The notes beneath the pieces are model-generated. The model was not told the origin of the DNA and ran no database searches. It saw only the letters and a program-made list of their open reading frames with translations. The translations under genes and the position numbers were made by a program. Below are positions 1,555 through 2,030 of a stretch of 64,000 bases of DNA, one piece after another. Positions within the stretch are counted from its first letter, which is position 1, and each line of letters opens with the position of its first letter. Where the stretch lies: assembly GCA_951406725.2 (NCBI GenBank), contig OX597818.1:18538001-18602000 (forward strand), in the 5' to 3' direction. The DNA is from Octopus vulgaris (Eukaryota).

Positions 1555-2030
1555 GTCACGTCTTTTACCTTACGAGAGCATTTTTCTCTACGGTAACTGC
1601 AGTGAATTTGGTTTTTTTTTAGGAGTTGAAATATGTCTCAAACATATTTTAACTGAACTAAACTTTGCTTATGCCTAAACACAGCTTGATGTTGATATTA
1701 TGGCAATTTCCACAAACTTGGCTGTCTACTTGCCCGAATCAGTTAATGTCGTTGACTGTATTTTATTAAAAGCTATGCTTTGATAAATTCTATCCCGAGT
1801 GGCTTCTCTTAGGTATTTCCCATTGATACGGGTAAAGAGCTAGAAACATCGATGTCTGGGAACCCTGATTGATGACAACACTGGACAGATATGGGGTTTT
1901 TACACTTTTTTTACCATAAGAGAGAATTTTTCTCCACGGTAACTGCAGTGAAATTGACTTTTAGTAGCTGAATCTATGTCACAAACATATTTTAACTAAC
2001 CTAAAATTTGCTTATGCCAAATAGCACTGA
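1555..2030 (+). mobile_element. Partial tandem (~346-nt period) short element carrying a hammerhead-ribozyme motif (retrozyme / Penelope pseudo-LTR-like)
   Basis: ~130-bp direct repeat (tttttctctacggtaactgcagtgaa...aactttgcttatgcc) at ~1555-1690 and ~1900-2030, with an HHR-like motif between them at 1817-1862. A second copy with the same order of blocks occurs at ~40215-41035, split by a SINE. Confidence 0.65.
1817..1862 (+). ncRNA. Minimal type I hammerhead ribozyme motif, U3:A8 variant, degenerate (A9 to C, weak stem II)
   Basis: UUCCCA-UUGAUAC-GGGUAAAGAGCUA-GAAA-CAUCGAUG-UC-UGGGAA: perfect 6-bp stem I, palindromic stem III ACAUCGAUGU, GUC cleavage triplet. Confidence 0.6.

What the first reader, a model, noticed from the sequence alone, without database searches (positions are those of the whole stretch)
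1555..2030. ~346-nt partial-tandem monomer with one hammerhead: retrozyme-like architecture
Seen: a ~130-bp direct repeat (1555-1690 and 1900-2030) brackets an HHR motif with perfect stem I (UUCCCA/UGGGAA), palindromic stem III and a GUC site, i.e. about 1.4 units of a ~346-nt monomer. A second copy with the same block order (ccattgataa...aaacatcgat, acactg, tttttaccata, taactgcagtgaatt...) is at ~40215-41035, split by a SINE. Established: greater-than-unit-length insertions of 170-400-nt HHR-bearing monomers are the footprint expected from reverse transcription of a small circular RNA or from PLE-type partial tandems. Inference: a non-LTR retrozyme family.
Basis: partly seen in the sequence, partly recalled or inferred. 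Interest (0 to 1): 0.7.

Follow-up and report, generated by a model that had tools for sequence, protein, structure and literature searches.

The report
Fossil Penelope-borne retrozyme, variant hammerhead
This is one decayed copy of an old, protein-free 343-base jumping repeat, present in likely well over a thousand copies, that carries a predicted self-cutting RNA and was likely pasted around the genome by Penelope-type enzymes; it is a variant of a known kind of element, not a new kind.

Summary
In detail: 1557-1678 repeats at 1903-2021 (82%, period 346) around one hammerhead motif. The locus is 1.3 units plus a tail of a ~343-nt non-coding family (2,543 first-look candidates; copies 12-16% from their majority).

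The family restores A9 and a stem II but keeps U3-A8 in place of C3-G8, a swap already in print for Penelope hammerheads. Most copies have a mismatch at the base of stem II. This copy has lost a core A and is probably dead.

Insertions show the Penelope footprint: fixed 3' ends, a 39-nt tail on one arm, random 5' truncation, inverted partial copies and (TA)n/(CA)n targets. Young RT/GIY-YIG elements in this genome also carry U3-A8 hammerheads, but no sequence-matched partner was found.

The family majority folds very stably (z = -9). A motif matching this genome's U1/U2 promoters sits 86 nt before the core.

No long arrays were seen: 3 of 86 insertions have two direct hammerheads. Cleavage, expression and a circular RNA are untested. 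The scan already noted younger sister families in this and other genomes.

Verdict: retrozyme-like non-autonomous Penelope element; real, but largely ordinary.

The parts
1557..1668 (+). 5'-truncated upstream partial unit (unit positions ~236-342)
1669..2011 (+). one full unit (positions 1-342), about 88% identical to the family majority
2012..2030 (+). remnant of the 39-nt Penelope-type tail (start of the next unit), with an internal deletion
   Evidence: sequence; tail seen in the family
1735..1750 (+). snRNA-promoter (PSE)-like motif, core ATCAGT at 1738-1743; function inferred
   Evidence: profile from this genome's U1/U2 upstream regions: family majority 15.2 bits (1 of 200 shuffles reach it), this copy 8.7 bits
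1794..1798 (+). predicted transcription start (57-61 nt after ATCAGT, the U1/U2 spacing); inferred only
1788..1890 (+). long irregular stem with the hammerhead at its tip (predicted for the family majority; decayed here)
1817..1862 (+). type I minimal-style hammerhead, U3-A8 variant; core 1823-1828 (one A lost), stem II 1829-1842, palindromic stem III 1846-1855, predicted cut after 1856
1966..1997 (+). 13-bp hairpin just before the fixed 3' end (predicted)
2030..2132 (.). (TA)n tract at the 3' junction, the likely target
   Evidence: family 58 of 86 vs 18% control
40222..40296 (+). second family copy, 5' piece (positions ~152-252, cleavage site deleted)
40943..41032 (+). second family copy, 3' piece (positions 253-342), followed by (TA)n

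Best explanation
The locus is a decayed copy of an old family of ~343-nt non-coding elements whose insertions show the Penelope footprint, and which likely spread as a retrozyme-type RNA copied by a Penelope-like (Neptune/Nematis-type) reverse transcriptase and endonuclease. Shown: family, fixed 3' ends, 39-nt tail, random 5' truncation, inverted arms, microsatellite flanks, a conserved and partly covarying U3-A8 hammerhead motif, strong predicted folding, and a U1/U2-like promoter motif at fixed distance. Inferred steps: (1) the internal snRNA-type promoter starts transcription about 20 nt before hammerhead stem I; (2) only rare copies holding the promoter plus two hammerheads (about 1.8 units or more) would yield a cut-to-cut monomer, the two ribozymes cutting as a dimer through the palindrome; (3) the long stem would hold the monomer's ends together for ligation into a circle; (4) the Penelope enzyme would nick (TA)n/(CA)n and copy the RNA from two fixed start points 39 nt apart, reading across the unit junction and the cut site, to give partial tandems and inverted arms. 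Copies like this one (promoter plus one ribozyme) would be dead ends. I put about 0.9 on 'non-autonomous, Penelope-mobilised hammerhead element' and about 0.55 on a circular intermediate.
For: Family: 2,543 first-look candidates; 366 exact hits of a 19-mer, control 1. Architecture in 86 parsed insertions picked by the 3' motif: partial tandem 23 of 86; inverted arm 35 of 86, 2 of them nested hairpin hits; microsatellite within 60 nt of the 3' end 58 of 86 vs 304 of 1,657 control windows; tail on exactly one arm in 19 of 25 two-armed insertions. These match the PLE description in 10.1101/2021.04.23.441226 (passages). Core in 51 segments not chosen for the ribozyme: U3 46, A8 34 or G8 13, A9 47, A13 50, A14 50. 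The stem I outer pair is the top covarying column pair (UA 76, AU 10 of 99) and a stem III pair ranks fifth. Dimer fold -30.3 kcal/mol vs -10.1 for each blocked monomer. Majority unit z -9.0 as a circle, other strand -6.0; cut-to-cut monomer z -8.5 with its 5' end paired next to its 3' end; double changes in predicted pairs 190 vs 145 expected. PSE-like motif 85-89 nt before U3 in this family and in three sister unit types. No excess of 5' ends at the cut site (9 vs 7.7 expected) or at the junction (1 vs 3.0). Repeats inside one insertion share non-majority letters about twice as often as random pairs. Young 781-aa RT + GIY-YIG elements with U3-A8 hammerheads, pLTRs and (TA)n flanks exist in the genome.
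Against: No tandem array: two direct hammerheads in 3 of 86 insertions, and promoter plus two hammerheads in 1 (L031). The exact two-core pattern gave 4 hits genome-wide, 2 of them true unit pairs by the matched text. Arm lengths thin out after about 380 nt: 1 of 22 reaches 580 nt against 8.2 expected at constant drop-off (P 5e-4; L031, broken at its 3' end, would be a second), so endless rolling on a circle is not what is seen. A finite linear template, slower second-lap synthesis or later collapse of long repeats would each explain it. The base of stem II is a mismatch in most copies (10.1: A18, C17, G9, T7; 11.1: A43 of 51), which by established hammerhead knowledge should weaken cutting. 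Covariation is not corrected for shared ancestry, and only 3 of 108 pairs are individually strong against 1.6 expected. No autonomous partner with matching sequence in 50 GIY-YIG loci. Rfam hammerhead models miss even a well-preserved copy. The PSE score of the family-2 majority alone was not significant (P 0.155).
Confidence: 0.65

Rival explanations
1. Linear mini-Penelope: same carrier enzyme, but the template is an uncut or capped linear read-through RNA of a two-unit source locus. Partial tandems come from that RNA or from template switching, with no circle, and the hammerhead may be weak or vestigial.
For: Arms stop at about 550-580 nt, close to the 558 nt expected from the predicted start in the upstream unit to the fixed 3' end; mismatch at the base of stem II in most copies; PLE minimal hammerheads cut poorly in vitro (PMC4209133); 8 of 9 Xenopus dimers did not cleave (10.64898/2026.07.22.740005).
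Against: A few arms run upstream of the predicted start in the second lap (L031 to position 61, L019 to about 100, L008 to about 107-121), which a capped linear RNA cannot template without a jump. Such copies are needed to regenerate a promoter-bearing dimer. The stem that would join the cut ends carries the compensatory changes, and the stem III region changes length between subfamilies while tending to stay palindromic.
Confidence: 0.28
2. The repeats are stubs (pLTR fragments) of an old autonomous Penelope element, not a self-contained unit.
For: Same hammerhead type and footprint as autonomous elements here; only a small part of the genome's PLE families was sampled.
Against: All junction-crossing copies examined continue into the same 343-nt unit or stop at the tail. 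The 400-nt upstream flanks share no family-wide sequence, and PLE protein hits lie in only 3 of 154 loci, more than 800 nt away.
Confidence: 0.05
3. One-off local duplication with a chance hammerhead-like motif.
For: This copy folds no better than shuffles (z -0.04 and -1.5); Rfam is silent.
Against: Hundreds of exact motif hits with empty controls; the same architecture on many contigs.
Confidence: 0.01

Closest known systems
Metazoan non-LTR retrozymes (PMC7229834: passages and sections 14, 17 read; mussel 350-390-bp repeats; 10.64898/2026.07.22.740005: parts 1-3 of 5 read)
   Same: 170-400-nt non-coding unit, GC under 45%, type I hammerhead, highly self-paired predicted RNA, co-occurring PLEs proposed as carriers.
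   Different: Here the copies are dispersed 0.1-1.9-unit insertions with PLE arms and tails and no multimer array was seen; the core is U3-A8/G8; expression and circles are untested; the family is old.
Minimal hammerheads of PLE pLTRs, including the U3-A8 variant of Schistosoma Cercyon elements (PMC4209133: parts 1-2 of 4 read)
   Same: U3-A8 core, small palindromic helix III, predicted dimer-dependent cleavage.
   Different: Sits in a self-contained 343-nt unit with no ORF; G10.1-C11.1, described there as highly conserved, is kept only in a minority subfamily.
Canonical EN+ Penelope-like elements, Neptune/Nematis type (10.1101/2021.04.23.441226: passages read); non-autonomous Chlamys such as MRC1 (same passages)
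   Same: Partial tandems, 5' truncation, adjacent inverted copy, 30-40-bp tail on one end, microsatellite bias.
   Different: No RT or GIY-YIG ORF; no 3' similarity to an autonomous family was found, unlike the non-autonomous Chlamys.
Newt satellite 2 (snRNA-type promoter; seen only as cited in PMC2220036 passages, the original paper was not read)
   Same: Hammerhead repeat with an internal snRNA-type promoter.
   Different: The promoter here is predicted from sequence only; dispersed rather than satellite-like.

Membership tests
Non-LTR retrozyme | Non-coding unit of about 170-400 nt, GC under 45% | tested here: met
   342-346 nt, 39% GC; no PLE protein similarity in the unit
Non-LTR retrozyme | Type I hammerhead in the unit | tested here: met
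   Motif conserved, stems I and III covary, U3-A8/G8 core; not matched by Rfam
Non-LTR retrozyme | Standard core (C3-G8, paired 10.1-11.1) | tested here: not met
   U3 in 46 of 51; 10.1-11.1 mostly C-A or A-A
Non-LTR retrozyme | Two or more consecutive units with complete hammerheads (the 'active' criterion of the 2026 preprint) | tested here: not met
   Not at this locus; 3 of 86 insertions have two direct, decayed hammerheads; no array over about 1.9 units
Non-LTR retrozyme | Highly self-paired monomer | tested here: met
   Majority z -9.0, 68% paired; modest covariation
Non-LTR retrozyme | Self-cleavage | not testable with these tools
   Only folding energies of the dimer
Non-LTR retrozyme | Abundant linear and circular monomer RNA | not testable with these tools
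   Only assembled contigs were available
Penelope-like element footprint | Fixed 3' end, 5' truncation, partial tandem | tested here: met
   23 of 86 partial tandems; 5' ends spread over the unit
Penelope-like element footprint | Adjacent inverted 5'-truncated copy | tested here: met
   35 of 86, 2 of them nested hairpin hits
Penelope-like element footprint | 30-40-bp tail on one end | tested here: met
   39 nt; on exactly one arm in 19 of 25, both 2, neither 4
Penelope-like element footprint | Microsatellite insertion bias | tested here: met
   58 of 86 vs 304 of 1,657
Autonomous EN+ PLE | RT plus GIY-YIG ORF | tested here: not met
Non-autonomous PLE derivative | Terminal similarity to an autonomous partner | tested here: inconclusive
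   None in 50 GIY-YIG loci, mostly one young clade, out of 6,136 candidates
snRNA-promoter-driven hammerhead repeat (newt satellite 2 type) | PSE-like element at snRNA spacing ahead of the ribozyme | tested here: met
   15.2 bits, 1 of 200 shuffles; same distance in three sister unit types; promoter activity untested

The most novel reading that the evidence does not exclude
The family's most successful subfamilies spread with a hammerhead whose stem II is closed by a C-A or A-A mismatch, while keeping the U3-A8/G8 core, a palindromic stem III and the end-joining stem. That is either an undescribed dimer-active hammerhead variant, or a retrozyme that stopped needing efficient self-cleavage. 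Together with the internal snRNA promoter, it gives a testable life cycle in which only the roughly 1% of insertions that lap the circle about 1.8 times are fertile.
Probability: 0.25. Interest if true: 0.55.

Novelty: new variant of a known kind. Interest (0 to 1): 0.3.

Why it matters
It adds a worked case for the proposed link between animal retrozymes and Penelope-like elements: the insertion footprint, the shared U3-A8 core and an snRNA-type promoter are visible in one family. Screens that require the standard core or tandem units would miss such families. For experiments the young sister families are the better material; this locus is a fossil.

Tried and rejected
RNA: no RNA holder listed. 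Two runs guessed to be RNA gave 121 and 87 contig pieces of family members on a locus near the majority, with the same 3'-heavy profile as two other runs and no piece spanning the unit; contigs cannot show level, strand or circularity, so this is no evidence either way.

A pile-up of 5' ends at unit positions 296-298 (9 vs 1.6 expected) first suggested a transcription start. By eye at least 4 of the 9 are short inverted arms or alignment artefacts caused by the 13-bp hairpin, so I rejected it. A pile-up at position 2 vanished with a more sensitive alignment.

Target-site duplications: 2 of 51 one-armed insertions had a shared word of 8 or more letters, against 5% in controls; none detectable, though copies are old.

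The first microsatellite control was faulty and was replaced. Alignment A1 has one row on the wrong strand and was not used for counts. The monomer energy was mis-specified and ignored. Anchored arm lengths can run into hairpin-like inverted arms, so some long values are inflated.

An intron ending just before stem I (the sequence resembles a 3' splice site) was considered; no matching joint was listed, where cover is thin. PMC10886601 (passages) was not relevant. A sequence look-up of earlier scan findings returned nothing for this family.

Full report
Observation. The direct repeat is real: 1557-1678 matches 1903-2021 at 82% with offset 346, far above shuffles. Between the repeats lies a hammerhead-like motif at 1817-1862. 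The second copy near 40222-41032 is real but is only about half a unit, split by other repeats. The genome is 2.8 Gb in 227 contigs. I take it for an octopus-like animal from its size and the recalled look of its SINEs; no call names it.

The family. A search with the locus gave 2,543 first-look candidates, of which 40 were scored. An exact 19-mer from the 3' end hits 366 places, control 1; 7 of 30 independently chosen loci keep that word exactly, so I estimate 1,500-3,000 insertions. Copies lie 12-16% from their cluster majority and none closer than 7%. The family is also seen in contigs of four other organism labels, and one contig of organism B runs from the unique flank into this very insertion, so the insertion predates that split.

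Architecture. The first 100 listed hits make 94 insertions; I held 92, and 86 were parsed (6 gave no profile segment at the anchor). This sample favours insertions with more than one 3' end. Of the 86: 23 are partial tandems; 35 have an inverted segment, 2 of them nested hairpin hits; 47 hold a hammerhead; 3 hold two in direct orientation. 3' ends fall at unit position ~342 or 39 nt further. In 25 two-armed insertions the tail is on exactly one arm in 19, both in 2, neither in 4. A microsatellite follows the 3' end in 58 of 86, against 304 of 1,657 control windows. This matches the published PLE description (10.1101/2021.04.23.441226, passages). Repeats within one insertion share non-majority letters more often (0.13 direct, 0.16 inverted) than random pairs (0.07), as expected if both were copied from one template lineage.

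The ribozyme. In 51 segments not selected for the motif: U3 46, A8 34, G8 13, A9 47, G12 42, A13 50, A14 50, C17 43. So the family restores A9, but position 3 stays U. The U3-A8 swap is described for Schistosoma PLE hammerheads (PMC4209133). In the wider set of 104 segments, which includes pattern-selected loci, the outer stem I pair is the best covarying column pair and a stem III pair ranks fifth. One subfamily has a clean G-C-closed 4-bp stem II; across it and the sister families the last pair of that stem takes all four forms. Most copies, however, have C-A or A-A at 10.1-11.1 followed by 4 bp. The isolated majority motif folds into a blocked monomer (-10.1 kcal/mol), while the double-hammerhead form scores -30.3, equal to the best dimer. 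The window copy lacks a core A and has a broken stem II pair, so it is probably inactive. Rfam does not recognise the motif.

RNA structure. The majority unit folds at -113 kcal/mol as a circle against -71 +/- 5 for shuffles (z -9.0; other strand -6.0). The hammerhead sits at the tip of a long stem, and the cut-to-cut monomer brings its ends together. Linear permutations fold about as well, so folding alone does not demand a circle. Double changes total 190 against 145 expected (13 of 5,000 resamplings reach this), concentrated in the long stem, but only 3 of 108 pairs stand out singly and ancestry is not corrected for. The window copy no longer folds better than shuffles.

Promoter. An earlier scan note suggested an snRNA-type promoter in sister repeats, so I tested it. 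Of 30 U1/U2 loci, 28 have ATCAGT (or ATTAGT) 57-61 nt before the gene. A profile built from them scores 15.2 bits once in the majority unit (next best 5.8; a U1 gene scores 15.6; 1 of 200 shuffles reaches it), 86 nt before U3. Three sister unit types have their best hit 85-89 nt before U3, though one of them (family 2) is not significant alone. The predicted start lies about 20 nt before stem I. An snRNA promoter is reported for newt satellite 2 (cited in PMC2220036; original not read).

Carrier. GIY-YIG search gave 6,136 candidates and many 781-aa open frames with RT and GIY-YIG domains and a CX4CXXC linker, which the paper above ties to Neptune and Nematis. Their terminal repeats carry a U3-A8 hammerhead and end in (TA)n. 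They share no detectable DNA similarity with our unit, so the actual partner is unidentified. PLE protein hits occur in only 3 of 154 family loci and not adjacent to the element.

Circle or line. 5' ends show no excess at the cut site or the junction, so the template was continuous across both. Lengths fall off faster after about 380 nt (1 of 22 reaches 580 nt, 8.2 expected). That fits a linear read-through RNA from the predicted start (558 nt maximum), slower synthesis on a second lap, or later loss of long repeats. A few copies extend upstream of the predicted start (L031, L019, L008). Such copies are what a lineage needs to regain promoter plus two ribozymes, which favours a circle or a template jump. 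I give the circle about 0.55.

Context. Younger sister families with 356-364-nt units, the same core and the same footprint exist. One pattern finds 310 cores. A two-core pattern finds 24 places, 15 of them true pairs and 9 unrelated satellites; the 14 inspected show at most two direct cores, and one locus has 2.3 units. The scan had already noted such sisters here and in other genomes; none matched this family by sequence.

Literature. Searches listed no paper on cephalopod retrozymes. The supplement of PMC7229834 could not be read, the preprint's supplements are closed, and Repbase/Dfam were not available, so a prior listing cannot be excluded.

Verdict. The feature is real and works like a non-LTR retrozyme moved by Penelope machinery. 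It fails the standard-core and tandem criteria, so I file it as a variant. Each ingredient is in print separately, and this locus is an old, probably dead copy. Interest 0.3.

Noticed in passing
window 25216-25455 (+): Copy of a younger sister family with an intact-looking U3-A8 hammerhead (core at 25247), between (TA)n tracts.
   Followed up: partly
window 40599 (-), 36400 (-), 41112 (+): Three further minimal hammerhead-like motifs of another repeat, each with a 4-bp stem II.
   Followed up: no
window 61550-61668 (+): 5S rRNA-like sequence, 78.7 bits, over the Rfam cut-off.
   Followed up: no
L185-L191 (e.g. L188:768-4468): Young autonomous Penelope-like family with a 781-aa RT/GIY-YIG frame and a long overlapping upstream frame of up to 479 codons with no confident Pfam match; identical 504-bp terminal repeats in L188.
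   Followed up: partly
L235-L264; L254: Sister family with a ~358-nt unit, 4% from its majority, 2,733 candidates; L254 has 2.3 direct units.
   Followed up: partly
L265-L278: Young two-hammerhead loci, repeats mostly 96-99.6% identical, with a strong PSE-like motif; the best material for cleavage and circle assays.
   Followed up: partly
L196:451-1000: A third unit type (360-nt period) with a U3-A8 hammerhead next to a Penelope element.
   Followed up: partly
L290, L297: U2 copies whose upstream region lacks the ATCAGT motif shared by the other 28 U1/U2 loci and is the same in both.
   Followed up: no
window ~1802-1812 (+): Pyrimidine run ending in TAG just before stem I, resembling a 3' splice site; an intron end at helix I is described for Drosophila virilis Penelope.
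   Followed up: no
window 53609-53982 and 52649-52867: Two-copy 184-nt repeat and a 41/82-nt tandem repeat.
   Followed up: no
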